The notes beneath the pieces are model-generated. The model was not told the origin of the DNA, did no database searches, and worked only from the letters and a program-made list of their open reading frames with translations. Below, piece by piece: positions 1-41,300 of a stretch of DNA of 64,000 nucleotides. Position 1 is the first letter of the stretch. Each line of letters starts with the position of its first letter. The position numbers were made by a program, and so were the translations under genes. The DNA is from Mayamaea pseudoterrestris (lineage: Eukaryota). Location of the stretch: assembly GCA_027923505.1 (NCBI GenBank), contig BROI01000014.1:744001-808000 (forward strand), written 5' to 3'.

Positions 1-558
1 TACCATATCAATATCTTGGAATTTGTCGCCATTGTTATCAATGTCGTCTTGGCGCTGGGAACCCTTGCCCATGATGATACCATGCGGCACAGCCAACACA
101 TTTTCAACGTCTTGGCCGACAACACCTCGGCTCTCTCCTGGATGCGGCATGCGGCGAGTTGCAAAGCTACAGAAATCAGGCGACTGGCACGCTTCTTTCA
201 CGCAATTACAACTTACCAACCTCTTGCTCTCCGCATTCAGGCAAACCACATTCCAGGAAAGGACAATGTGGAGGCAGACCGCCTCTCTCGCTTCACGCCG
301 TCGACTCTCTCGTGGGCATCCGTTATCTGTCCGGACACGCAGGCATTGGCAGCTTGCAAAGTTTACCTAGTGGAGCGCGAGCTGCTTTCCACAATCTCGT
401 CCGTGATCAATGGGAGCGCGAGCGAGGCGACATACGGTCCAGAAACGATCGCGCGTTTGATCAAAGAGCCTCGCATTTTGGCAGATGGAGCCTCCAGGCA
501 GGATTCACAGACCAGTCTTTTGCGGAAATCGCATCGGGGCAAGAAATCGCGGTCTTAG
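1..558 (+). CDS. Retrotransposon pol C-terminus: DIRS-type RNase H (5'-truncated by the window)
   Basis: Frame +1 reads YHINILEFVA...ADNTSALSW...HIPGKDNVEADRLSR, matching the HINxLE, DN and HIPGxxNxxADxLSR motifs of DIRS RNase H. Confidence 0.88.
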   Translation, partial: YHINILEFVAIVINVVLALGTLAHDDTMRHSQHIFNVLADNTSALSWMRHAASCKATEIRRLARFFHAITTYQPLALRIQANHIPGKDNVEADRLSRFTPSTLSWASVICPDTQALAACKVYLVERELLSTISSVINGSASEATYGPETIARLIKEPRILADGASRQDSQTSLLRKSHRGKKSRS

Positions 559-1613
559 CAGGCTACTTGTTTGCAGTTGCCTCTGGCGAGACGTCCTTGG
601 AGATTGACAAAAACAAGCTAAAAGGAAAGGCAAACGCACAACAAGATCCATTGATGGTGAAGACATTAGTGGGTTACCTAAACGCCGCGCACTCTCTCCT
701 CGAGTTGTTCCTCAATCGCAAGTTTTCCATTCACAACCCCAACAGAGAGGGTTATCACCCCATGCTAGCAGACATCCTTGCTAGTAGGCGCAAGTGGCAG
801 AAGGCACGAGAAAAGCGCGAGCCTTTCACCAACAAAATGTTTGAGCATTTATATGCCTCTTTGAAACAGGCAACAGCTCAAAACGTCACTGTGAATCTCG
901 ATCTACAGGCCGCAGTTTTTGATTGGACTTGCCTTGGCGCCTTTACTGGTTCACGTGCCAATGAATACGCTCAAACTACAGCACGAAGAGGTTGCTTCAG
1001 CAAGGTTCCTGCCAATAAGGACGCCGGCGAGTGGGCACACCAGCCATTGGCTTTCATTGACTTGGACTTCATGTTCTACACAGCCGACAGTGTACTACTC
1101 CCACATGACAAGCTGCTAAAACATCCAGCCGCAGCCGCCAAATTGCACTTGCGTTTTCGCTACGACAAAAGTCAAAACAACTTTTCCATTCGAAAGTTTA
1201 AACGGTCTGGGCATCCCTTCATTTGCCCTATAGCAGCTAGCGTCTCCATCATCGGACGCGCGCGCTGCCTCCATAACAAATCGTCAAAAGAACCTTTGGG
1301 CGTCTTTCGCACTTCTGGCACGGGAAGCTACGACTATCTACAGTCACGCGATATTATCAAGGTGATGCGCGAAGCAGTGGTTGGAGCATACCCCGACCCA
1401 CAGCATTTCCTTCGCCAGAATGTGACTCGCATTGTGGCTCACTCTAACAGAGTCACAGCTGCCGTTGCCTTGCAGAATGCAGGTCTTGATATTCAAGAGA
1501 TTGCATTCAGGTTGCGCTGGTCTGCACCATCAGTTCAACATTACCTTCGAGAAAGCTCCCAGGAAGTCGGGCGCCTGACGCTCAAGGCTATCCAGGGAGC
1601 AGTTTTAATTTGA
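159..1613 (+). CDS. Tyrosine recombinase/integrase of the retrotransposon (true start uncertain; first in-frame ATG at about 654)
   Basis: Catalytic R-H-R-W-Y pattern: GSRANEY, HSNRVTAA, LRWS, VQHY. Uninterrupted frame overlapping the RNase H ORF. Confidence 0.87.
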   Translation: MQSYRNQATGTLLSRNYNLPTSCSPHSGKPHSRKGQCGGRPPLSLHAVDSLVGIRYLSGHAGIGSLQSLPSGARAAFHNLVRDQWERERGDIRSRNDRAFDQRASHFGRWSLQAGFTDQSFAEIASGQEIAVLAGYLFAVASGETSLEIDKNKLKGKANAQQDPLMVKTLVGYLNAAHSLLELFLNRKFSIHNPNREGYHPMLADILASRRKWQKAREKREPFTNKMFEHLYASLKQATAQNVTVNLDLQAAVFDWTCLGAFTGSRANEYAQTTARRGCFSKVPANKDAGEWAHQPLAFIDLDFMFYTADSVLLPHDKLLKHPAAAAKLHLRFRYDKSQNNFSIRKFKRSGHPFICPIAASVSIIGRARCLHNKSSKEPLGVFRTSGTGSYDYLQSRDIIKVMREAVVGAYPDPQHFLRQNVTRIVAHSNRVTAAVALQNAGLDIQEIAFRLRWSAPSVQHYLRESSQEVGRLTLKAIQGAVLI

Positions 1614-1908
1614 GTGTCGCTCACGACCTCGTCTACTAGCAGACGTTACAATCTTCTGCAACTTTGAGATTACTAGGTTACGAGACTGTAGCTAAAGGTT
1701 TGCATCCGAGTCGCCGGCCTTTGGTCTGGCTGCTTGTGCGCTCCTCGTCTTTAGCTAGCTCCTCCTTATCAGGGGCAATCTCCAGGGTCTTTCCACAGAT
1801 CCAGAGTCTTCTCGTTCTCCTTCTCTTTCCTTCTTCCGCGGTTCTCGCCACACGGCCTCTTTGTTTGTTTGTGTGGCGTGACTGCCCCCAGCAAGCTGTT
1901 GTTCGTGT

Positions 1909-2119
1909 GGGTTGTGGCGAATCCTCCTCACAGGATTCGCTCCAGTCATCATTGATGACGTGGTTGTTGCTCCAGGGACCCGGAGTTTGCACTCCGAGTC
2001 CACATAGCAAATGCAACCACAGGACATCGCTGCCGACTTTGGGCAGCTGGCCGGGCGCAGCCTAGCACGCGGAAGGAAACAGCCGAGCGACGGAGGGCAA
2101 TCTGCACTTGTGCTGATTG
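1909..2119 (+). repeat. Split direct repeat B1 (211 bp)
   Basis: gggttgtggcgaatcc...gtgctgattg, same as 2361-2571 except one mismatch I could see (ggaagg/ggaaag). Confidence 0.95.
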
Positions 2120-2360
2120 TCCGGCTCAGGGCGGATGCTTCGAGGAGACTGCCTTGGGGACACTCATAAGATACCCTTATGAGTACACTGTGATCGATAG
2201 TCACGTCATCAGTGGTGCGGGAGAGAAGAATGGGAACAGCTACCGACAACGGGCAGACCACATGCCAATGTTGATCGGGTTGCCTCCCATTCCTTTGGTT
2301 AGCTTGCCGACCTTGTTGTTGTCTAGCAAGCTCTCTGTTGTTTGTCCCACCCACCCACCC
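2120..2360 (+). repeat. Putative A2 segment between B1 and B2 (expected to copy the element's 5' terminus)
   Basis: Position between two direct repeats at the element's 3' end fits the A1...B1-A2-B2 layout; A1 is outside the window, so unverified. Confidence 0.6.
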
Positions 2361-2571
2361 GGGTTGTGGCGAATCCTCCTCACAGGATTCGCTCCAGTCA
2401 TCATTGATGACGTGGTTGTTGCTCCAGGGACCCGGAGTTTGCACTCCGAGTCCACATAGCAAATGCAACCACAGGACATCGCTGCCGACTTTGGGCAGCT
2501 GGCCGGGCGCAGCCTAGCACGCGGAAAGAAACAGCCGAGCGACGGAGGGCAATCTGCACTTGTGCTGATTG
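2361..2571 (+). repeat. Split direct repeat B2 (211 bp), right terminus of the element
   Basis: Copy of 1909-2119 at offset 452; immediately followed by satellite sequence ccaaaaatacaccag. Confidence 0.95.
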
Positions 2572-5500
2572 CCAAAAATACACCAGAATGGTGCCAGCAT
2601 CATTATTCAGGCTGCGCTACAAGATGGTAGGCTTGGCTGGTGTCTCAGGGGATGGCAATGTATTTGGTGACAACTTGTCACCAGTCTCAGCCCGCAGATG
2701 CCGTGACATTCAAACGCCCCTACAGCAAGCCCTGTGGGTGCCCAAAATACACCAGAATGGTGCCAACATCATTATTCAGGCTGCGCTACAAGATGGTAGG
2801 CTTGGCTGGTGTCTCAGGGGATGGCAATGTATTTGGTGACAACTTGTGACCAGTCTCAGCCCACAGATGCCATGACATTCAAACGCCCCTACAGCAAGCC
2901 CTGTAGGTGCTCAAAATACACCAGAATGGTGCCAACATCATTATTCAGGCTGCGCTACAAGATGTTAAGCTTGGCTGGTGTCTCAGGGGATGGCAATGTA
3001 TTTGGTGACAACTTGTCACCAGTCTCAGCCCGCAGATGCCATGACATTCAGACACACCTACAGTAGGCCCTGTAGGTGCCCGAATGGTGGCAACATCATT
3101 GGTCAGGCTGCGCTACAAGATGGTAGGCTTGGCTGGTGTCTCAGGGGATGGCAATGTATTTGGTGACAACTTGTCACCAGTCTCAGCCCACAGATGCTGT
3201 GACATTCAAATGCCCCTACAGCAAGCCCTGTGGGCGCCCAAAATACACCAGAATGGTGCCAACATCATTATGCAGGCTGCGCTACAAGTTGGTAGGCTTG
3301 GCTGGTGTCTCAGGGGATGGCAATGTATTTGGTGACAACTTGTCACCAGTCTCAGCCCACAGATGCCGGGATATTCAAACGCCCCTACAGCAAGCCCTGT
3401 GGGTGCCCAAAATACACCAGAATGGTGCCAACATCATTATTCAGGCTGCGCTACAAGATGGTAGGCTTGGCTGGTGTCTCAGGGGATGGCAATGTATTTG
3501 GTGACAACTTGTCACCAGTCTCAGCCCGCAGTGCCATGACATTCAAACGCCCCTACAGCAAGACCTGTAGGTGCCCAAAATACACCAGAATGGTGCCAAC
3601 ATCATTATTCAGGCTGCTCTACAAGATGGTAGGCTTGGCTGGTGTCTCAGGGGATGGCAATGTATTTGGTGACAACTTGTCACCAGTCTCAGCCCGCAGA
3701 TGCCGTGACATTCAAACACCCCTACAGCAAGCTCCGTAGGTGCCCAAAATACACCAGAATGGTGCCAACATCATTATTCTGGCTGCGCTACAAAATGGTA
3801 GGCTTGGCTGGTGTCTCAGGGGATGGCAATGTATTTGGTGACAACTTGTCACCAGTCTCTGCCCGCAGATGCCGTGACATTCAAATGCCCCTACAGCAAG
3901 CCTTGTGGGTGCCCAAAATACACCAGAATGGTGCCAACATCATTATTCAGGCTGCGCTACAAGATGGTAGGCTTGGCTGGTGTCTCAGGGGATGGCAATG
4001 TATTTGGTGACAACTTGTCACCAGTCTCAGCCTGCAGTTGCCGTGACATTCAAACGCCCCTACAGCAAGCCTTGTGGGTGCCCAAAATACACCAGAATGG
4101 TGCCAACATCATTATTCAGGCTGCGCTACAAGATGGTAGGCTTGGCTGGTGTCTCAGGGGATGTCAATGTATTTGGTGACAACTTGTCACCAGTCTCAGC
4201 CTGCAGTTGCCGTGACATTCAAACGCCCCTACAGCAAGCCTTGTGGGTGCCCAAAATACACCAGAATGGTGCCAACATCATTATTCAGGCTGCGCTACAA
4301 GATGGTAGGCTCGGCTGGTGTCTCAGGGGATGGCAATGTATTTGGTGACAACTTGTCACCAGTCTCAGCCCGCAGATGCCATGACATTCAAACGCCCCTA
4401 CAGCAAGCCCTGTAGGTGCCCAAAATACACCAGAATGGTGCCAACATCATTATGCAGGCTGAGCTACAAGATGGTAGGCTTGGCTGGTGTCTCAGGGGAT
4501 GGCAATGTATTTGGTGACAACTTGTCACCAGTCTCAGCCCACAGATGCCGTGACATTCAAACGCCCCTACAGCAAGCCCTGTGGGTGCCCAAAATACACC
4601 AGAATGGTGCCAACATCATTATTCAGGCTGCGCTACAAGATGGTAGGCTTGGCTGGTGTCTCAGGGGATGGCAATGTATTTGGTGACAACTTGTCACCAG
4701 TCTCAGCCCACAGATGCCGTGACATTCAAACGCCCCTACAGCAAGCCCTGTGGGTGCCCAAAAATACACCAGAATGGTGCCAGCATCATTATTCAGGCTG
4801 CGCTACAAGATGGTAGGCTTGGCTGGTGTCTCAGGGGATGGCAATGTATTTGGTGACAACTTGTCACCAGTCTCAGCCCTCAGATGCTGTGACATTCAAA
4901 CAGCCCTACAGCAAGCCCTGTGGGTGCCCAAAATACACCAGAATGGTGACAACATCATTATTCAGGCTGCTCTACAAGTTGGTAGGCTTGGCTGGTGTCT
5001 CAGGGGATGGCAATGTATTTGGTGACAACTTGTCACCAGTCTCAGCCCACAGATGCTGTGACATTCAAATGCCCCTACAGCAAGCCCTGTGGGCGCCCAA
5101 AATACACCAGAATGGTGCCAACATCATTATTCAGGCTGCGCTACAAGTTGGTAGGCTTGGCTGGTGTCTCAGGGGATGGCAATGTATTTGGTGACAACTT
5201 GTCACCAGTCTCAGCCCGCAGATGCCGTGATATTCAAACGCCCCTACAGCAAGCCTTGTGGGTGCCCAAAATACACCAGAATGGTGCCAACATCATTATT
5301 CAGGCTGCGCTACAAGATGGTAGGCTTGGCTGGTGTCTCAGGGGATGGCAATGTATTTGGTGACAACTTGTCACCAGTCTCAGCCCGCAGTGCCATGACA
5401 TTCAAACGCCCCTACAGCAAGCCCTGTAGGTGCCCAAAATACACCAGAATGGTGCCAACATCATTATTCAGGCTGCGCTACAAGATGGTAGGCTTGGCTG

Positions 5501-8500
5501 GTGTCTCAGGGGATGGCAATGTATTTGGTGACAACTTGTCACCAGTCTCAGCCCGCAGATGCCGTGACATTCAAACGCCCCTACAGCAAGCTCCGTAGGT
5601 GCCCAAAATACACCAGAATGGTGCCAACATCATTATTCTGGCTGCGCTACAAAATGGTAGGCTTGGCTGGTGTCTCAGGGGATGGCAATGTATTTGGTGA
5701 CAACTTGTCACCAGTCTCTGCCCGCAGATGCCGTGACATTCAAACGCCCCTACAGCAAGCCCTGTGGGTGCCCAAAATACACCAGAATGGTGCCAACATC
5801 ATTATTCAGGCTGCGCTACAAGATGGTAGGCTTGGCTGGTGTCTCAGGGGATGGCAATGTATTTGGTGACAACTTGTCACCAGTCTCAGCCCGCAGATGC
5901 CGTGACATTCAAACGCCCCTACAGCAAGCCCTGTGGGTGCCCAAAATACACCAGAATGGTGCCAACATCATTATTCAGGCTGCGCTACAAGATGGTAGGC
6001 TTGGCTGGTGTCTCAGGGGATGGCAATGTATTTGGTGACAACTTGTCACCAGTCTCAGCCTGCAGATGCCGTGACATTCAAACGCCCCTACAGCAAGCCT
6101 TGTGGGTGCCCAAAATACACCAGAATGGTGCCAACATCATTATTCAGGCTGCGCTACAAGATGGTAGGCTCGGCTGGTGTCTCAGGGGATGGCAATGTAT
6201 TTGGTGACAACTTGTCACCAGTCTCAGCCCGCAGATGCCATGACATTCAAACGCCCCTACAGCAAGCCCTGTAGGTGCCCAAAATACACCAGAATGGTGC
6301 CAACATCATTATTCAGGCTGCGCTACAAGATGGTAGGCTTGGCTGGTGTCTCAGGGGATGGCAATGTATTTGGTGACAACTTGTCACCAGTCTCAGCCCA
6401 CAGATGCCGTGACATTCAAACGCCCCTACAGCAAAGCCCTGTAGGTGCCCAAAATACACCAGAATGGTGCCAACATCATTATTCAGGCTGCGCTACAAGA
6501 TGGTAGGCTTGGCTGGTGTCTCAGGGGATGGCAATGTATTTGGTGACAACTTGTCACCAGTCTCTGCCCGCAGATGCCGTGACATTCAAACACCCCTACA
6601 GCAAGCCCTGTGGGTGCCCAAAAATACACCAGAATGGTGCCAGCATCATTATTCAGGCTGCGCTACAAGATGGTAGGCTTGGCTGGTGTCTCAGGGGATG
6701 GCAATGTATTTGGTGACAACTTGTCACCAGTCTCAGCCCACAGATGCTGTGACATTCAAACGCCCCTACAGCAAGCCCTGTGGGTGCCCAAAATACACCA
6801 GAATGGTGCCAACATCATTATTCAGGCTGCGCTACAAGATGGTAGGCTTGGCTGGTGTCTCAGGGGATGGCAATGTATTTGGTGACAACTTGTCACCAGT
6901 CTCAGCCCGCAGATGCCGTGACATTCCAACGCCCCTACAGCAAGCCCTGTGGGTGCCCAAAATACACCAGAATGGTGCCAACATCATTATTCAGGCTGCG
7001 CTACAAGATGGTAGGCTTGGCGGGTGTCTCAGGGGATAACAATGTATTTGGTGACAACTTGTCACCAGTCTCAGCCCACAGATGCCGTGACATTCAAAGG
7101 GCCCTACAGCAAGCCCTGTGGGTGCCCAAAATACACCAGAATGGTGCCAACATCATTATTCAGGCTGCGCTACAAGATGGTAGGCTTGGCTGGTGTCTCA
7201 GGGGATGTCAATGTATTTGGTGACAACTTGTCACCAGTCTCAGCCCGCAGATGCCGTGACATTCAAACGCCCCTACAGCAAGCCTTGTGGGTGCCCAAAA
7301 TACACCAGAATGGTGCCAACATCATTATGCAGGCTGCGCTACAAGATGGTAGGCTCGGCTGGTGTCTCAGGGGATGGCAATGTATTTGGTGACAACTTGT
7401 CACCAGTCTCAGCCCGCAGATGCCATGACATTCAAACGCCCCTACAGCAAGCCCTGTGGGTGCCCAAAATACACCAGAATGGTGCCAACATCATTATTCA
7501 GGCTGCGCTACAAGATGGTAGGCTTGGCTGGTGTCTCAGGGGATGGCAATGTATTTGGTGACAACTTGTCACCAGTCTCAGCCCACAGATGCCGTGACAT
7601 TCAAACGCCCCTACAGCAAAGCCCTGTAGGTGCCCAAAATACACCAGAATGGTGCCAACATCATTATTCAGGCTGCGCTACAAGATGGTAGGCTTGGCAG
7701 GTGTCTCAGGGGATGGCAATGTATTTGGTGACAACTTGTCACCAGTCTCAGCCCGCAGATGCCGTGACATTCAAACACCCCTACAGCAAGCCCTGTGGGT
7801 GCCCAAAAATACACCAGAATGGTGCCAGCATCATTATTCAGGCTGCGCTACAAGATGGTAGGCTTGGCTGGTGTCTCAGGGGATGGCAATGTATTTGGTG
7901 ACAACTTGTCACCAGTCTCAGCCCACAGATGCTGTGACATTCAAACGCCCCTACAGCAAGCCCTGTGGGTGCCCAAAATACACCAGAATGGTTCCAACAT
8001 CATTATTCAGGCTGCGCTACAAGATGGTAGGCTTGGCTGGTGTCTCAGGGGATGGCAATGTATTTGGTGACAACTTGTCACCAGTCTCAGCCCGCAGATG
8101 CCGTGACATTCAAACGCCCCTACAGCAAGCCCTGTGGGTGCCCAAAATACACCAGAATGGTGCCAACATCATTATTCAGGCTGCGCTACAAGATGGTAGG
8201 CTTGGCGGGTGTCTCAGGGGATGGCAATGTATTTGGTGACAACTTGTCACCAGTCTCAGCCCGCAGATGCCGTGACATTCAAAGGCCCCTACAGCAAGCC
8301 CTGTGGGTGCCCAAAATACACCAGAATGGTGCCAACATCATTATTCAGGCTGCGCTACAAGATGGTAGGCTTGGCTGGTGTCTCAGGGGATGGCAATGTA
8401 TTTGGTGACAACTTGTCACCAGTCTCAGCCCACAGATGCCGTGACATTCAAACGCCCCTACAGCAAGCCCTGTGGGTGCCCAAAATACACCAGAATGGTG

Positions 8501-10085
8501 CCAACATCATTATGCAGGCTGCGCTACAAGATGGTAGGCTTGGCTGGTGTCTCAGGGGATGGCAATGTATTTGGTGACAACTTGTCACCAGTCTCAGCCC
8601 GCAGATGCCGTGACATTCAAACGCCCCTACAGCAAGCCCTGTGGGTGCCCAAAATACACCAGAATGGTGCCAACATCATTATTCAGGCTGCGCTACAAGA
8701 TGGTAGGCTTGGCTGGTGTCTCAGGGGATGGCAATGTATTTGGTGACAACTTGTCACCAGTCTCAGCCCGCAGATGTCGTGACATTCAAACGCCCCTACA
8801 GCAAGCCCTGTGGGTGCCCAAAATACACCAGAATGGTGCCAACATCATTGTTCAGGCTGCGCTACAAGATGGTAGGCTTGGCTGGTGTCTCAGGGGATGG
8901 CAATGTATTTGGTGACAACTTGTCACCAGTCTCAGCCCGCAGATGCCGTGACATTCAAACGCCCCTACAGCAAGCTCCGTAGGTGCCCAAAATACACCAG
9001 AATGGTGCCAACATCATTATTCTGGCTGCGCTACAAAATGGTAGGCTTGGCTGGTGTCTCAGGGGATGGCAATGTATTTGGTGACAATTTGTCACCAGTC
9101 TCTGCCCGCAGATGCCGTGACATTCAAATGCCCCTACAGCAAGCCCTGTGGGTGCCCAAAATACACCAGAATGGTGCCAACATCATTATTCAGGCTGCGC
9201 TACAAGATGGTAGGCTTGGCTGGTGTCTCAGGGGATGGCAATGTATTTGGTGACAACTTGTCACCAGTCTCAGCCTGCAGTTGCCGTGACATTCAAACGC
9301 CCCTACAGCAAACTTTGTGGGTGCCCAAAATACACCAGAATGGTGCCAACATCATTATTCAGGCTGCGCTACAAGATGGTAGGCTTGGCTGGTGTCTCAG
9401 GGGATGTCAATGTATTTGGTGACAACTTGTCACCAGTCTCAGCCTGCAGTTGCCGTGACATTCAAACGCCCCTACAGCAAGCCTTGTGGGTGCCCAAAAT
9501 ACACCAGAATGGTGCCAACATCATTCTTCAGGCTGCGCTACAAGATGGTAGGCTCGGCTGGTGTCTCAGGGGATGGCAATGTATTTGGTGACAACTTGTC
9601 ACCAGTCTCAGCCCACAGATGCCGTGACATTCAAACGCCCCTACAGCAAGCCCTGTGGGTGCCCAAAATACACCAGAATGGTGACAACATCATTATTCAG
9701 GCTGCTCTACAAGATAGCTTGGCTGATGGAAGACCAGTTGCAAGCCAACCTGCAAACCAAATGGTAACAATCAAGTACAGCAAGCCTTGTGGGTGCCCAA
9801 AATACACCAGAATGGTGCCAACATCATTATTCAGGCTGCGCTACAAGATGGTAGGCTTGGCTGGTGTCTCAGGGGATAAATAACCAGTGCAACGTCAACC
9901 TGCACCAGATGCTGTGACATTCAAACGCCCCTACAGCAAGCCCTGTGGGTGCCCAAAATACACCAGAATGGTGCCAACATCATTATTCAGGCTGCGCTAC
10001 AAGATGGTAGGCTTGGCTGGTGTCTCAGGGGATGGCAAGGTATTTGGTGACAACTTGTCACCAGTCTCTGCCCGCAGATGCTGTC
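2572..10085 (+). repeat. 169-bp tandem satellite, array 1 (about 44 monomers)
   Basis: Unit cccaaaatacaccagaatggtgccaacatc...tggtgacaacttgtcacca...cctacagcaagccctgtgggtg recurs every 169 bp; mixed with minisatellite sequence at about 9715-9905. Confidence 0.97.
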
Positions 10086-10740
10086 GTGACTAATCTGCAA
10101 ACCATTGTACCGATAAACCAGTCGCAAGCCAACCTGCAAACCAATCATACCAATTATCTAACCTGCAAACCAATCATACCAATTACCCAGCCTGCAAACC
10201 AACTGTACCGATGAACCAGCCACAAGCTAGCCTGCAAATTTTGTACTGATAAACCAGTTGCAAGCCAACCTGCAAACCATATGTACCAATTACCAACCTG
10301 CAACCAACTGTACCAATTACCCAGCCTGCAAACCAACTGTACCAATTAACCAGTCGCAAGCCAACCTGCAAACCAAATGTACCAATTACACAGCCTGCAA
10401 AACAACTGTACCAATTAACAAGCCACAAGCTAGCCTGCAAACCATTGTACCGATAAACCAGTTGCAAGCCAACCTGCAAACCAATCATACCAATTACCCA
10501 ACCTGCAAACCAATCGCACCAATTACCCAACCTGCAAACCTATCGCACCAATTACCCAACCTGCAACCCAATCATACCAATTACCCAACCTGCAAACCAA
10601 TTGTACCATTTACCCAGTCGTAAACCAATCATACTGAATAACCAGTGCAAGCCAACCTGCAAACCAATCGCACCAATTACCCAGCCTGCAAACCAACTGT
10701 ACCAATTAACCAGCCGCATGCTAGCCCTGCAAATCATTGT
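10086..10740 (+). repeat. Degenerate CCAA-rich minisatellite with ~30-bp and ~39-bp units
   Basis: Recurrent ccaattacccaacctgcaaaccaa and ccagtcgcaagccaacctgcaaacc units. Confidence 0.9.
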
Positions 10741-35300: not shown

Positions 35301-38300
35301 GCAAGCCCTGTAGGTGCCCAAATTACACAAGAATGGTGCCAACATCATTTTGGAAGTTGCGCTACAAGATGGTAAGCTTGGCTGTTGTCTCAGGGGATGG
35401 CAATGTATTTGGTGACAACTTGTCACCAGTCTCAGCCCGCAGATGCCATGACATTCAAATGCCCCTACAGCAAGCCCTGTAGGTGCCCAAATTACACCAG
35501 AATGGTGCCAACATCATCATTCAGGCTGCGCTACAAGATGGTAGGCTTGGCTGGTGTCTCAGGGGATGACAATTTATTTGGTGACAACTTGTCACCAGTC
35601 TCAGCCTGCAGATGCCATGACATTCAGACACACCTACAGCAGGCCCTGTAGGTGCCCAAAATACACCAGAATGGTGCCAACATCATTATTCAGGCTGCGC
35701 TACAAAATGGTAAGCTTGGCTGGTGTCTCATGGGATGGCAATGTATTTGGTGACAACTTGTCACCAGACTCAGCCCGTTGAGGCCATGACATTCAGACAC
35801 ACCTACAGCAGGCCCTGTAGGTGCCCAAATTATACCAGAATGGTGACAACATCATTTTTGAAGTTGAGCTACAAGATGGTAAGCTTGGCTGGTGTCTCAG
35901 GGGATGGCAATGTATTTGGTGACAACTTGTCACCAGTCTCAGCCTGCAGATGCCATGACATTCAGACACACCTATAGCAGGCCCTGTAGGTGCCCAAAAT
36001 ACACCAGAATGGTGCCAACATCATTATGCAGGCTGCGCTACAAAATGGTAAGCTTGGCTGGTGTCTCAGGGGATGGCAATGTATTTGGTGACAACTTGTC
36101 ACCAGTCTCAGCCCGCAGATGCCATGACATTCAGACACACCTACAGCAAGCCCTGTAGGTGCCCAAATTACACAAGAATGGTGCCAACATCATTTTGGAA
36201 GTTGCGCTACAAGATGGTAAGCTTGGCTGTTGTCTCAGGGGATGGCAATGTATTTGGTGACAACTTGTCACCAGTCTCAGCCCGCAGATGCCATGACATT
36301 CAAACGCCCCTACAGCAAGCCCTGTAGGTGCCCAAATTACACCAGAATGGTGCCAACATCATTATTCAGGCTGCGCTACAAGATGGTAGGCTTGGCTGGT
36401 GTCTCAGGGGATGGCAATGTATTTGGTGACAACTTGTCACCAGTCTCAGCCCGTAGATGCCATGACATTCAGACACACCTACAGCAGGCCCTGTAGGTGC
36501 CCAAATTACACCAGTATGGTGCCAACATCATTATTCCTGCTGCGCTACAAGATGGTAGGCTTGGCTGGTGTCTCAGGGGATGGCAATGTATTTGGTGACA
36601 ACTTGTCACCAGTCGCAGCCCGCAGATGCCATGACATTCAAACGCCCCTACAGCAAGCCCTGTAGGTGCCCAAATTACACCAGAATGGTGCCAACATCAT
36701 TATTCAGGCTGCGCTACAAGATGGTAGGCTTGGCTGGTGTCTCAGGGGATGGCAATGTATTTGGTGACAACTTGTCACCAGTCTCAGCCCGTAGATGCCA
36801 TGACATTCAGACACACCTACAGCAGGCCCTGTAGGTGCCCAAATTACACCAGTATGGTGCCAACATCATTATTCCTGCTGCGCTACAAGATGGTAGGCTT
36901 GGCTGGTGTCTCAGGGGATGGCAATGTATTTGGTGACAACTTGTCACCAGTCGCAGCCCGCAGATGCCATGACATTCAGATGCCCCTACAGCAAGCCCCA
37001 TAGGTGCCCAAAATACACCAGAATGGTGCCAACATCATTATTCAGGCTGCGCTACAAGATGGTAGGCTTGGCTGGTGTCTTGGGGGATGGCAATGTATTT
37101 GGTGACAACTTGTCACCAGTCTCAGCCCGCAGATGCCATGACATTCAGACACACCTACAGCAGGCCCTGTAGGTGCCCAAAATACACCAGAATGGTGCCA
37201 ACATCATCATTCAGGCTGCGCTACAAGATGGTAGGCTTGGCTGGTGTCTCAGGGGATGACAATGTATTTGGTGACAACTTGTCACCAGTCTCAGCCCGCA
37301 GATGCCATGACATTCAGACACACCTACAGCAGGCCCTGTAGGTGCCCAAATTACACCAGAATGGTGCCAACATCATTATTTGGGCTGCGCTACAAGATGG
37401 TAAGATTGGCTGGTGTCTCAGGGGATGGCAATGTATTTGGTGACAACTTGTCACCAGTCTCAGCCCGCAGATGCCATGACTTTCAAACGCCCCTACAGCA
37501 AGCCCTGTAGGTGCCCAAAATACACCAGAATGGTGCCAACATCATTTTTGAAGTTGAGCTACAAGATGGTAAGCTTGGCTGGTGTCTCAGGGGATGGCAA
37601 TGTATTTGGTGACAACTTGTCACCAGTCTCAGCCCGCAGATGCCATGACATTCAAATGCCCCTACAGCAAGCAGCTCGTGGCTCGTAACTGGTGGCTCGT
37701 AGCTCACAGCTCTCACGCATGTGAATTCTCTCATTGTTTGCAGTTCCGGTCCTAGATGCTTCCATGGCTTGGCTTTCTCGGGGATGGCAATGTATTTGGT
37801 GACAACTTGTCACCGTCTCCCGTCAAACCTAGCAGGCCCTGTAGGTGCCCAAGTTACACCAGAATGGTGCCGACATCCTTATTAGGCTGCGCTACATTGG
37901 TAGGCTTGCGTTCTCGGGGGTGGCATGTGTTTGGTGACAACTTGTTCGCCGGTGCCGTGACTTCAAGCCTCGCGTGTGCCCAAATCCCCGCCCCCCTTTT
38001 GGCTGCGCTACAAGTGGTTGGCCTGGCTGGTGTCTCGGGGATGGCAATGTTTTGGTGCACTTTACCGTCTCCCCCGGATGCCGTGACTTCTAACCCCTCC
38101 GCCCTCCAAGTAGCATCATTATTCAGGCTGCGCTGCAAGATGGTGGCTTGGCTGGTGTCTCGGGTGGTGGAAATGGTTTTTGGTCAACGTTTGCTGCATT
38201 GCTTTGCCTGTAATCAGAGTCTGTTTGTGTGTCCTGTATACGACAGACCACTGTTTCCTTGCCGGCACAATGTTGTGTTGGAACCCGGACAGTTTTTGGG

Positions 38301-41300
38301 GCATTACTTTGCGGGGAACGACGACATTTTTCAAAACAAGAAGCTCGTTGTATTGGATGGTCCCTGTGGTGTTGGCAAATCTAGCTTCGTGCGTGAGTAC
38401 GAAGTGCGAGAATCTACGCGCCTCGCGGCGATGGACCGAACGCACAATGTCTTGGTGATTTCCGACCGAAGAGTAAGTGATCACTCGCAGCTGGTAGCTG
38501 GTGACTCGCAGCTGGTGACTCGCAGCTGGTGACTCGCAGCTGGTGACTCGCAGCTGGTGACTCGCAGCTGGTGACTCGCAGCTGGTGACTCGCAGCTGGT
38601 GACTCGCAGCTGGTGACTCGCAGCTGGTGACTCGCAGCTGGTGACTCGCAGCTGGTGACTCGCAGCTGGTAGTTGTTGACTCGCAAACACCTCACTGGTG
38701 CCCAAAATACACCAGAATGGTGCCAACATCATCATTCAGGCTGCGCTACAAAATGGTAAGCTTGGCTGGTGTCTCATGGGATGGCAATGTATTTGGTGAC
38801 AACTTGTCACCAGACTCATTCCGTTGAGGCCATGACATTCAGACACACCTACAGCAGGCCCTGTAGGTGCCCAAATTATACCAGAATGGTGACAACATCA
38901 TTTTTGAAGTTGAGCTACAAGATGGTAAGCTTGGCTGGTGTCTCAGGGGATGGCAATGTATTTGGTGACAACTTGTCACCAGTCTCAGCCTGCAGATGCC
39001 ATGACATTCAGACACACCTATAGCAGGCCCTGTAGGTGCCCAAAATACACCAGAATGGTGCCAACATCATTATGCAGGCTGCGCTACAAAATGGTAAGCT
39101 TGGCTGGTGTCTCAGGGGATGGCAATGTATTTGGTGACAACTTGTCACCAGTCTCAGCCCGCAGATGCCATGACATTCAGACACACCTACAGCAAGCCCT
39201 GTAGGTGCCCAAATTACACCAGAATGGTGCCAACATCATTATTCAGGCTGCGCTACAAAATGGTAAGCTTGGCTGGTGTCTCATGGGATGGCAATGTATT
39301 TGGTGACAACTTGTCACCAGACTCATTCCGTTGAGGCCATGACATTCAGACACACCTACAGCAGGCCCTGTAGGTGCCCAAATTATACCAGAATGGTGAC
39401 AACATCATTTTTGAAGTTGAGCTACAAGATGGTAAGCTTGGCTGGTGTCTCAGGGGATGGCAATGTATTTGGTGACAACTTGTCACCAGTCTCAGCCTGC
39501 AGATGCCATGACATTCAGACACACCTATAGCAGGCCCTGTAGGTGCCCAAAATACACCAGAATGGTGCCAACATCATTATGCAGGCTGCGCTACAAAATG
39601 GTAAGCTTGGCTGGTGTCTCAGGGGATGGCAATGTATTTGGTGACAACTTGTCACCAGTCTCAGCCCGCAGATGCCATGACATTCAGACACACCTACAGC
39701 AAGCCCTGTAGGTGCCCAAATTACACAAGAATGGTGCCAACATCATTTTGGAAGTTGCGCTACAAGATGGTAAGCTTGGCTGTTGTCTCAGGGGATGGCA
39801 ATGTATTTGGTGACAACTTGTCACCAGTCTCAGCCCGCAGATGCCATGACATTCAAATGCCCCTACAGCAAGCCCTGTAGGTGCCCAAATTACACCAAAA
39901 TGGTGCCAACATCATTTTTGAAGTTGCACTACAAGATGGTAAGCTTGGCTGGTGTCTCAGGGGATGGCAATGTATTTGGTGACAACTTGTCACCAGTCTC
40001 AGCCTGCAAATGCCATGACATTCAGATGCCCCTACAGCAAGCCCTGTAGGTGCCCAAAATACACCAGAATGGTGCCAACATCATTATTCAGGCTGCGCTA
40101 CAAGATGGTAGGCTTGGCTGGTGTCTCAGGGGATGGCAATGTATTTGGTGACAACTTGTCACCAGTCTCAGCCCGCAGATGCCATGACATTCAGACACAA
40201 CTACAGCAGGCACTGTAGGTGCCCAAATTACACCAGAATGGTGCCAACATCACTTTTGAGGCTGCGCTACAAGATGGTAGGCTTGGCTGGTGTCTCAGGG
40301 GATGGCAATGTATTTGGTGACAACTTGTCACCAGTCTCAGCCCGCAGATGCCATGACATTCAGACACACCTACAGCAGGCCCTGTAGGTGCCCAAATTAC
40401 ACCAGAATGGTGCCAACATCATCATTCAGGCTGCGCTACAAGATGGTAGGCTTGGCTGGTGTCTCAGGGGATGGCAATGTATTTGGTGACAACTTGTCAC
40501 CAGTCTCAGCCCGCAGATGCCATGACATTCAGACACACCTACAGCAGGCTCTGTAGGTGCCCAAATTACACCAGGATGGTGCCAACATCATCATTCAGGC
40601 TGCGCTACAAGATGGTAAGCTTGGCTGGTGTCTCAGGGGATGGCAATGTATTTGGTGACAACTTGTCACCAGTCTCAGCCCACAGATGCCATGACATTCA
40701 GACACACCTACAGCAGGCCCTGTAGGTGCCCAAATTACACCAGAATGGTGTTAACATCATCATTCAGGCTGCGCTACGAGATGGTAGGCTTGGCTGGTGT
40801 CTCAGGGGATGGCAATGTATTTGGTGACAACTTGTCACCAGTCTCAGCCCGCAGATGCCATGACATTCAAATGCCCCTACAGCAAGCCCTGTAGGTGCCC
40901 AAATTACACCAGAATGGTGCCAACATCATTAATCAGGCTGCGCTACAAGATGGTAGGCTTGGCTGGTGTCTCAGGGGATGGCAATGTATTTGGTGACAAC
41001 TTGTCACCAGTCTCAGCCCGCAGATGCCATGACATTCAGACACACCTACAGCAGGCCCTGTAGGTGCCCAAAATACACCAGAATGGTGCCAACATCATCA
41101 TTCAGGCTGCGCTACAAGATGGTGGGCTTGGCTGGTGTCTCAGGGGATGACAATGTATTTGGTGACAACTTGTCACCAGTCTCAGCCTGCAGATGCCTTG
41201 ACATTCAGATGCCCCTACAGCAGGCCCTGTAGGTGCCCAAATTACACCAGAATGGTGCCAACATCATCATTCAGGCTGCGCTACAAGATGGTAGGCTTGG

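What the first reader, a model, noticed from the sequence alone, without database searches (positions are those of the whole stretch)
1..2760. Intact-looking Ngaro-like YR retrotransposon whose right end lands inside the 169-bp satellite: candidate satellite-targeting element
Seen: B2 ends at ...gtgctgattg (2571) and the next base starts satellite sequence mid-motif (ccaaaaatacaccagaatggtgccagcatc). That is the rare 5-A/gccagc monomer variant also present near 4757, 6617 and 7802. B1 and B2 differ at one visible base and both ORFs are open, suggesting a young copy. Known: DIRS-order elements integrate a circular intermediate with a tyrosine recombinase, usually without target-site duplication, and some prefer particular targets. 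Inference: the element may use the satellite as a repeated landing pad, with the B1/A2 junction (gattg|tcc) recombining with satellite (ggtgc|cc). One junction alone cannot establish targeting.
Basis: partly seen in the sequence, partly recalled or inferred. Interest (0 to 1): 0.72.

Follow-up and report, generated by a model that had tools for sequence, protein, structure and literature searches.

The report
Diatom retrotransposon favouring satellite-rich silent DNA
A recently inserted but now broken jumping gene of a known rare kind sits cleanly inside a satellite repeat of a diatom-like alga, and its relatives are found far more often than chance in several different, apparently silenced tandem repeats, but they do not aim at one satellite sequence.

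Summary
The element is 8,795 bp with an A1-ORFs-B1A2B2 (Ngaro) layout, inserted without duplication or loss in a 169-bp satellite. It is not intact: outside the window its RT-RNase H frame has a stop that short-read contigs confirm. Sequence-specific targeting is not supported: 9 of 24 family insertions lie in this satellite, at 7 monomer positions and in both orientations; 5 lie in other tandem repeats and 10 elsewhere. Yet 14 of 24 abut a CpG-depleted tandem repeat, against 3 of 40 random points. A sister lineage (0 of 5) and a copia family with no visible chromodomain (0 of 5) do not; three chromodomain-like copia families do (15 of 53). Left junctions have T at -3 in 19 of 19, echoing the element's circle junction. 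Best reading: a lineage-level preference for heterochromatic repeats plus micro-homology (0.5); passive survival remains open (0.33). No reader domain was found. The scan had already noted Ngaro elements, this satellite and chromo-copia elements elsewhere in this genome.

The parts
1..558 (+). 3' end of the pol (RT-RNase H) frame: RNase H part. The rest of the element (A1, ORF1, RT) lies left of the window at G000:C14:737777-744000 (L031:3777-10000)
   Evidence: ORF list; 57-93% identity to the single pol ORFs of other copies; RNase H-type motifs seen in the C15 copy; no Pfam hit
78..1613 (+). Tyrosine recombinase ORF (511 aa stop to stop), overlapping the end of pol in another frame
   Evidence: R (GSRANE), H-x-x-R (HSNR) and Y (VQHY) motifs (motif roles recalled); Pfam PF00589 only 15.9 bits, below the 27.1 cut-off; 30 matches in the genome
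1614..1908 (+). 3' non-coding spacer
   Evidence: conserved in related copies; no ORF from ATG longer than 90 aa after the YR stop
1909..2119 (+). Repeat B1
   Evidence: 210 of 211 nt identical to B2
2120..2360 (+). Repeat A2 (2120-2345 equal to A1) plus a 15-nt spacer; B1/A2 is the predicted circle junction
   Evidence: 226 of 226 nt identical to A1 at C14:737777-738002
2361..2571 (+). Repeat B2, right end of the element
2550..2571 (.). Terminal palindrome (9-bp arms, 4-nt loop) closing B
   Evidence: present in 7 of 7 complete B ends folded, from three lineages
2572..9715 (+). 169-bp satellite array, right half of the array the element interrupts (monomers continue to about 10060)
   Evidence: TRF 42.3 copies, 96% matches; CpG o/e 0.28 against 1.05 in nearby genic DNA; continuity with the left array

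Best explanation
An Ngaro-type tyrosine-recombinase retrotransposon of a pennate diatom-like genome. Shown: the layout, the clean insertion, and a two-level pattern of sites. Locally, targets read R-T-N-N^Y, like the element's own circle junction (ATTG^T). Regionally, this lineage is enriched in several unrelated CpG-depleted tandem repeats, of which the 169-bp satellite is the commonest. Inferred: the RNA is copied to a circle through the split repeats. The recombinase joins the circle junction to a site sharing a 2-3 base micro-homology, the left end keeping the target's core and the right end the element's. The integration complex favours methylated, heterochromatic repeat DNA rather than a satellite sequence, probably through the long ORF1 protein, by analogy with Cafeteria Ngaros. 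Pol is probably made by read-through of the UGA-C stop after ORF1. This copy then acquired a CGA-to-TGA stop in pol, as expected in methylated DNA.
For: 14 of 24 insertions abut a tandem repeat (13 by the strict rule) vs 3 of 40 random points, p 1.5e-5 (strict 5e-5). Four repeat families are hit, all with flank CpG o/e 0.06-0.38 (bar the C1:607k left flank, 0.72). Lineage contrast in one genome: sister lineage C 0 of 5 (p 0.04-0.05); copia family with no visible chromodomain 0 of 5; three copia families with a chromodomain-like segment 15 of 53. Copies with near-identical repeats are in arrays too: 3 of 4 in this lineage vs 0 of 3 in lineage C. T at -3 in 19 of 19 left flanks, A/G at -4 in 18 of 19, pyrimidine at +1 in 11 of 13 right flanks. 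Precedent for type-specific Ngaro targeting tied to ORF1 (PMC8547959 section 11) and for DIRS-1 confined to heterochromatic centromeres without a target sequence (PMC2665215 passages).
Against: Numbers are small and the grouping by lineage was made after seeing the data. 10 of 24 insertions are outside tandem repeats. The excess over copia is modest (p 0.01-0.07 by counting rule) and absent for the 169-bp satellite alone (p 0.28) and for low-CpG flanks (15 of 24 vs 28 of 58, p 0.33). If tandem repeats make up 40% of tolerated space, passive survival explains the counts (p 0.05-0.12, assumed shares). Many array-embedded copies are truncated or solo. Methylation and chromatin were not measured.
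Confidence: 0.5

Rival explanations
1. Passive safe haven: the element inserts at R-T-N-N^Y sites almost anywhere, and copies survive mainly in gene-free, silenced tandem repeats because insertions elsewhere in a gene-dense genome are purged.
For: Copia elements are enriched in the same satellite. By eye most of the 40 random draws look genic (long ORFs, CpG o/e near 1). Many satellite-embedded copies are decayed. With tandem repeats at 40% of tolerated space the excess is not significant.
Against: Two families in the same genome show 0 of 5 each in tandem repeats or low-CpG DNA. The enriched copia families carry a chromodomain-like segment, so they are not a neutral control. With tandem repeats at 25-33% of tolerated space the excess stays (p 0.0005-0.03).
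Confidence: 0.33
2. Sequence-specific satellite targeting: the recombinase recognises a site in the 169-bp monomer and uses the satellite as a landing pad.
For: 9 of 24 insertions are in this satellite; two share one monomer site (C25, C3) and two more may (C41, C30).
Against: 7 positions, both orientations, three other repeat families hit, 10 of 24 outside repeats. The R-T-N-N^Y motif is only about 1.5 times denser in the satellite than in genic DNA (15-17 vs 10.9 per 169 nt per strand).
Confidence: 0.05
3. Indirect physical bias: arrays are favoured because of a general property (regular nucleosome spacing with exposed linkers, breaks during replication or repair, or nuclear clustering with donor copies), not because an element protein reads a mark.
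For: No reader domain found in ORF1 by profile or fold search. Copies cluster near each other at C15:94-112 kb and C9:9-25 kb.
Against: Lineage C, with homologous proteins (about 57-59% in pol and YR, about 32% in ORF1), shows no such bias.
Confidence: 0.1
4. Assembly artefact: the junction is a mis-join between two repeats.
For: The left junction was not shown among the contig rows; the assembly has locally poor stretches (window 37670-38700; L031:5878-6057).
Against: Both ends are exact element termini, the rejoined flanks match intact dimers of the rare variant, and the junction obeys the family's motif.
Confidence: 0.02

Closest known systems
Ngaro retrotransposons of Cafeteria burkhardae (PMC8547959; section 11 and passages read)
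   Same: A1-ORFs-B1A2B2 layout, ORF1 / RT-RH / YR order, solo AB repeats, stramenopile host, and insertion preference that differs between types in one genome, with ORF1 implicated.
   Different: The preferred target there is endogenous virophage DNA; here it is CpG-depleted tandem repeats. Sequence relationship to the Cafeteria elements was not tested.
DIRS-1 of Dictyostelium discoideum (PMC2665215, PMC7192593, PMC3266345; passages read)
   Same: YR retrotransposon, no target-site duplication, short likeness between circle junction and target, accumulation in heterochromatin without a defined target sequence.
   Different: DIRS-1 has inverted terminal repeats, an internal complementary region and a methylase domain, inserts into itself and ends up flanked by the same trinucleotide at both ends. 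Here the repeats are split direct repeats, the shared bases are 2-3 and asymmetric, and the arrays are many per contig.
CoDi-A copia elements of diatoms with a putative integrase chromodomain (PMC2774666; passages read)
   Same: Three such-looking families in this genome are enriched in the same satellite.
   Different: They use a DDE integrase with a chromodomain-like module; the Ngaro element has a YR and no recognisable chromodomain.
Ngaro and PAT-like DIRS families of Ectocarpus (PMC12477816; passages read)
   Same: Ngaro elements are diverse and abundant in a photosynthetic stramenopile.
   Different: The passages read report no satellite preference for them; the centromere-specific element there is a Gypsy.

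Membership tests
Ngaro (DIRS order) | Split direct repeats A1 ... B1 A2 B2 | tested here: met
   A1 = A2 over 226 nt, B1/B2 210 of 211
Ngaro (DIRS order) | Tyrosine recombinase ORF overlapping pol, no DDE integrase | tested here: met
   R, HxxR, Y motifs; weak PF00589 hit below cut-off, no rve hit
Ngaro (DIRS order) | RT-RNase H pol ORF | tested here: inconclusive
   Four of seven recalled RT/RNase H motif patterns matched in the C15 copy; no Pfam RT hit
Ngaro (DIRS order) | No methyltransferase domain | tested here: met
   No Dam hit in pol of three copies; no extra ORF after YR; a very divergent domain is not excluded
Ngaro (DIRS order) | No target-site duplication | tested here: met
   Rejoined flanks match intact dimers; C25, C3 and C15:104k junctions also rejoin satellite sequence
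Ngaro (DIRS order) | RT/YR phylogeny groups with described Ngaro elements | not tested
   Only a tree of 8 YRs from this genome was built
Ngaro (DIRS order) | Circular DNA intermediate | not testable with these tools
   Needs PCR or reads across a free circle
DIRS1-like | Inverted terminal repeats and internal complementary region | tested here: not met
   Only direct repeats; inverted repeats are at most 24 nt in window 1-2900; A1 is a direct repeat
PAT-like | Methyltransferase domain beside split direct repeats | tested here: not met
Sequence-specific (site-specific) satellite-targeting element | One fixed site and orientation in the monomer | tested here: not met
   7 positions, 2 of 9 reversed
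Sequence-specific (site-specific) satellite-targeting element | Most copies in that one repeat | tested here: not met
   9 of 24
Chromatin-targeted retrotransposon (chromovirus / CoDi-A type) | Chromodomain or other known reader domain | tested here: inconclusive
   None found by Pfam, atlas or fold search of ORF1 models; pol and YR were not folded
Chromatin-targeted retrotransposon (chromovirus / CoDi-A type) | New insertions directed to heterochromatin | not testable with these tools
   Only standing insertions were counted
Centromeric retrotransposon | Target arrays are centromeres (CENH3-bound) | not testable with these tools
   Arrays occur at several places on one contig, e.g. at least 4 multi-monomer arrays on C1 among the first 100 of 4,481 matches listed, which argues against all being centromeres

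The most novel reading that the evidence does not exclude
One Ngaro lineage actively homes to methylated tandem-repeat heterochromatin through an ORF1 domain of undescribed fold (N-terminal half modelled at pTM 0.88, no PDB match), converging on the same niche as chromodomain-bearing copia elements while its sister lineage does not. That would give a natural pair of elements for finding how YR retrotransposons such as DIRS-1 reach heterochromatin without a target sequence.
Probability: 0.35. Interest if true: 0.7.

Novelty: new variant of a known kind. Interest (0 to 1): 0.42.

Why it matters
How tyrosine-recombinase retrotransposons choose where to insert is called unresolved for DIRS-1 (PMC2665215, 2009, passage). 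This genome offers sister lineages with opposite distributions, a clear junction rule (T at -3 in 19 of 19) and an independent class of elements in the same arrays, so target choice could be tested by an ORF1 swap or in a methylation mutant. If the pattern is only survival in safe DNA, the element is an ordinary Ngaro member and the value is descriptive: tandem repeats cover about 10% of the random sample here and are a sink for several retroelements.

Tried and rejected
1) Satellite derived from a copia RNase H: one frame resembles it by eye, but the match was reached by 21 of 200 shuffles, 78 of 500 (other copia families) and 4 of 500 (profile of one sequence); left as an unproven lead. 2) Reader domain in ORF1: no Pfam hit in 2 intact ORF1s and 21 homologues; no usable atlas hit; fold searches of the whole model and of residues 1-510 gave no Foldseek match at E<=0.001 and best VIA Z 3.9 and 2.8. 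This shows neither absence nor a new fold. 3) YR against PDB sequences: 0 matches. 4) Expression: no RNA holder listed. 5) Junction support from reads: the runs are contigs and the left junction was not among the rows shown. 6) Pfam did not detect the copia chromodomain-like segments in the two enriched-family stretches scanned, of which only one covered the segment; they were called by eye from a recalled motif. 7) Rows left out before counting: copies without a true end (C10:424k, C8:774k, C18:259k, C2:2678k, C11:839k, C15:724k; all but C15:724k have 169-bp satellite nearby), the C26 solo (lineage-C start, ambiguous), the C5:87k motif hit, and 2 of 60 copia regions with no clear end. C33 and C10:470k share a flank and count once. 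8) The random sample was cut to 40 x 1.8 kb, so the background is rough. 9) Literature: 7 searches listed no paper on a satellite-associated Ngaro in diatoms; most subscription papers are not covered.
Full report
Setting. The window is G000:C14:744001-808000, in a genome of 30.6 Mb and 41 contigs. Three of the four proteins matching the element's ORF1 (up to 98% identical) are named by NCBI as hypothetical proteins of Mayamaea pseudoterrestris, so the host is probably that pennate diatom or a close relative.

Observation. B1 (1909-2119) and B2 (2361-2571) differ at 1 of 211 bases, and satellite begins at 2572 in the rare 5-A monomer variant also seen at 4757, 6617 and 7802. The 5' end is at C14:737777: A1 equals window 2120-2345 at 226 of 226 bases, and about 5 kb of the same satellite precedes it. 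The element is 8,795 bp. Rejoined, the flanks differ at only 4 of 338 bases from intact dimers at window 6618 and 7803, the best of 62 boundaries, so the insertion neither duplicated nor deleted target bases.

Anatomy. The layout is A1-ORF1-pol-YR-B1-A2-B2, the arrangement given for Ngaro elements in PMC8547959 (section 11) and PMC3783388 (passages). In the best-preserved copies ORF1 is one frame of 1,159-1,222 aa (C15:94k, C2:247k, C9:819k), pol one frame of 955-1,038 aa, and YR overlaps the end of pol. ORF1 ends in a Cys/His-rich motif. In 8 of 8 copies where that boundary is present, ORF1 ends in TGA-C, in frame with pol in 7; C9:819k is shifted. This suggests stop read-through; an earlier scan note reports the same. 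The window copy is damaged outside the window. Pol has an in-frame TGA at L031:9287-9289, covered without other letters by short-read contigs of runs X1 and X2. The aligned residue is Arg in 8 of 10 other copies, coded CGA in two of them, which fits a CpG transition (inference). ORF1 is split in two frames, but the contigs replace L031:5878-6057 with a stretch I estimate at 204 rather than 178 bases, so this break may be an assembly error.

Other copies. Searches with A, B, YR and two end motifs gave 24 insertions of the window's lineage with at least one true end; 'lineage' here means A repeats starting like the window's, covering two YR subgroups. Of 24, 9 abut the 169-bp satellite, 5 abut other tandem repeats (a 352/172-182-bp family twice, a 371-bp repeat, a 345-348-bp repeat twice), and 10 abut none. 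One of the 14 (C41) counts on its junction letters and fails the strict 60-base rule used for controls, giving 13 of 24. Repeat flanks have CpG o/e of 0.06-0.38, bar one at 0.72, against about 1.05 in genic DNA. In Phaeodactylum, CG methylation by DNMT5 marks TE-rich, H3K9/H3K27-methylated regions (PMC9998398 passages), so I read the depletion as a methylation scar (inference).

Background and controls. A 24-mer of the satellite has 4,481 exact matches genome-wide and is present in 75 of about 101 window monomers, giving roughly 1 Mb or 3.3%. Of 40 random points, 3 abut a tandem repeat and 5 have low-CpG flanks; tandem repeats cover 10% of the sample. The lineage is therefore clearly enriched (14 of 24 vs 3 of 40, p 1.5e-5). 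But copia elements are too: of 58 resolved 3' ends (60 fetched, from 150 RT matches scored), 15 abut a tandem repeat, 12 of them the 169-mer, and two more begin with satellite letters. For the 169-mer alone the two classes do not differ (9 of 24 vs 14 of 58, p 0.28). For any tandem repeat the Ngaro lineage is higher (p 0.01-0.07 depending on the rule). Prompted by earlier scan notes, I looked between integrase and RT. One copy of each of the three enriched copia families shows a chromodomain-like segment by eye; one copy of the fourth family (0 of 5 in repeats) shows none. Such a domain is reported for CoDi-A elements (PMC2774666 passages). The sister Ngaro lineage C has 0 of 5 insertions in repeats, with normal CpG flanks (p 0.04-0.05). 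These contrasts favour real preference, but they rest on five copies each and on grouping after the fact. Passive survival is not excluded: if repeats are 25-33% of tolerated space the excess stays (p 0.0005-0.03), at 40% it does not (p 0.05-0.12); these shares are assumptions.

Local rule. All 19 left flanks have T at -3, 18 have a purine at -4, and 11 of 13 right flanks start with a pyrimidine. The circle junction reads ATTG^T, so target and donor share 2-3 bases. DIRS1 elements are described as recombining a 3-base junction with an identical genomic sequence (PMC3266345, PMC7192593 passages). Here the two bases next to the joint vary, the left end keeps them, and right ends keep the element's ATTG; right ends were found with that motif at up to 2 mismatches, which may bias this. 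The motif is only about 1.5 times denser in the satellite than in genes, too little to explain the enrichment. In lineage C only 2 of 4 left flanks have T at -3.

Candidate targeting protein. ORF1 is the most divergent frame between lineages (about 32% identity, against 57-59% for pol and YR) and has 146 profile matches in public data, mostly to its C-terminal half. Models are confident (whole, pLDDT 83; residues 1-510, pTM 0.88) but match nothing known. In Cafeteria, Ngaro types differ in target and loss of ORF1 goes with loss of preference. A role for ORF1 here is inference by analogy only.

What is known. Ngaro elements are described in stramenopiles. A genome paper on M. pseudoterrestris mentions neither satellites nor DIRS in its main text; its repeat table lists 0 satellites and 51 Gypsy/DIRS1 elements (PMC9724779, passages and a search of 2 supplementary files). 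Seven searches listed no report of a satellite-associated Ngaro in diatoms. Earlier scan notes cover Ngaro copies, the satellite and chromo-copia elements on other pieces of this genome; none held all the words of a search for satellite-targeting Ngaro.

Verdict. A real, young but broken Ngaro-type element, cleanly inserted in a satellite. Targeting of the satellite sequence is not supported (0.05). A lineage-level bias to CpG-depleted tandem repeats is shown; whether it is active preference (0.5), survival (0.33) or an indirect physical bias (0.1) needs new insertions. New variant of a known kind; interest 0.42.

Noticed in passing
L137-L196, L079:3140-9010, L237, L238, L121: Three copia families with a chromodomain-like segment have 15 of 53 3' ends at tandem repeats and 28 of 53 in low-CpG DNA; a family without it has 0 of 5. 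A first count bearing on whether CoDi chromodomains steer insertion.
   Followed up: partly
window 2550-2571: B ends in a palindrome with 9-bp arms kept in 7 of 7 complete ends, with different inner bases in lineage C; possible recombinase or priming site.
   Followed up: partly
L012:1663-2622 (G000:C3, about 1581.8-1582.7 kb): A solo AB copy carries a 960-bp insert with long terminal inverted repeats and an 8-bp target duplication, like a non-autonomous DNA transposon.
   Followed up: no
L067 and L068 (G000:C15:94503-112213): Two copies lie head to head around about 1 kb of 169-bp satellite; one has 169-bp satellite on its left and the 352-bp family on its right, hinting at recombination between copies.
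   Followed up: no
L104, L072, L073 (G000:C9:1-25133): A 352-bp array at the contig end, followed by a 5'-truncated copy with a tandem duplication of its 3' part and a detached right end.
   Followed up: no
window 2665-2683 and every monomer: The 169-bp monomer holds a 19-bp near-perfect palindrome, a possible protein-binding site.
   Followed up: no
window 3408-3576, one reading frame: The monomer translates to a peptide resembling copia RNase H; not significant in two of three shuffle tests.
   Followed up: partly
window 37670-38700: The second array is broken by scrambled satellite, a short unrelated stretch with a P-loop-like motif and a 14-bp unit repeated 12.5 times; looks like poorly polished assembly plus a fragment.
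   Followed up: no
window 10105-10715: A C/A-rich 29-bp-based tandem repeat follows the first array.
   Followed up: no
L083:592, L086:3119: Two truncated copies (C10:424k, C8:774k) share nearly the same break into satellite, suggesting duplication of one event.
   Followed up: no
L199, L098: Very CpG-poor stretches without the known satellites occur (one with an open frame across 1.8 kb), so low CpG is not confined to these arrays.
   Followed up: no
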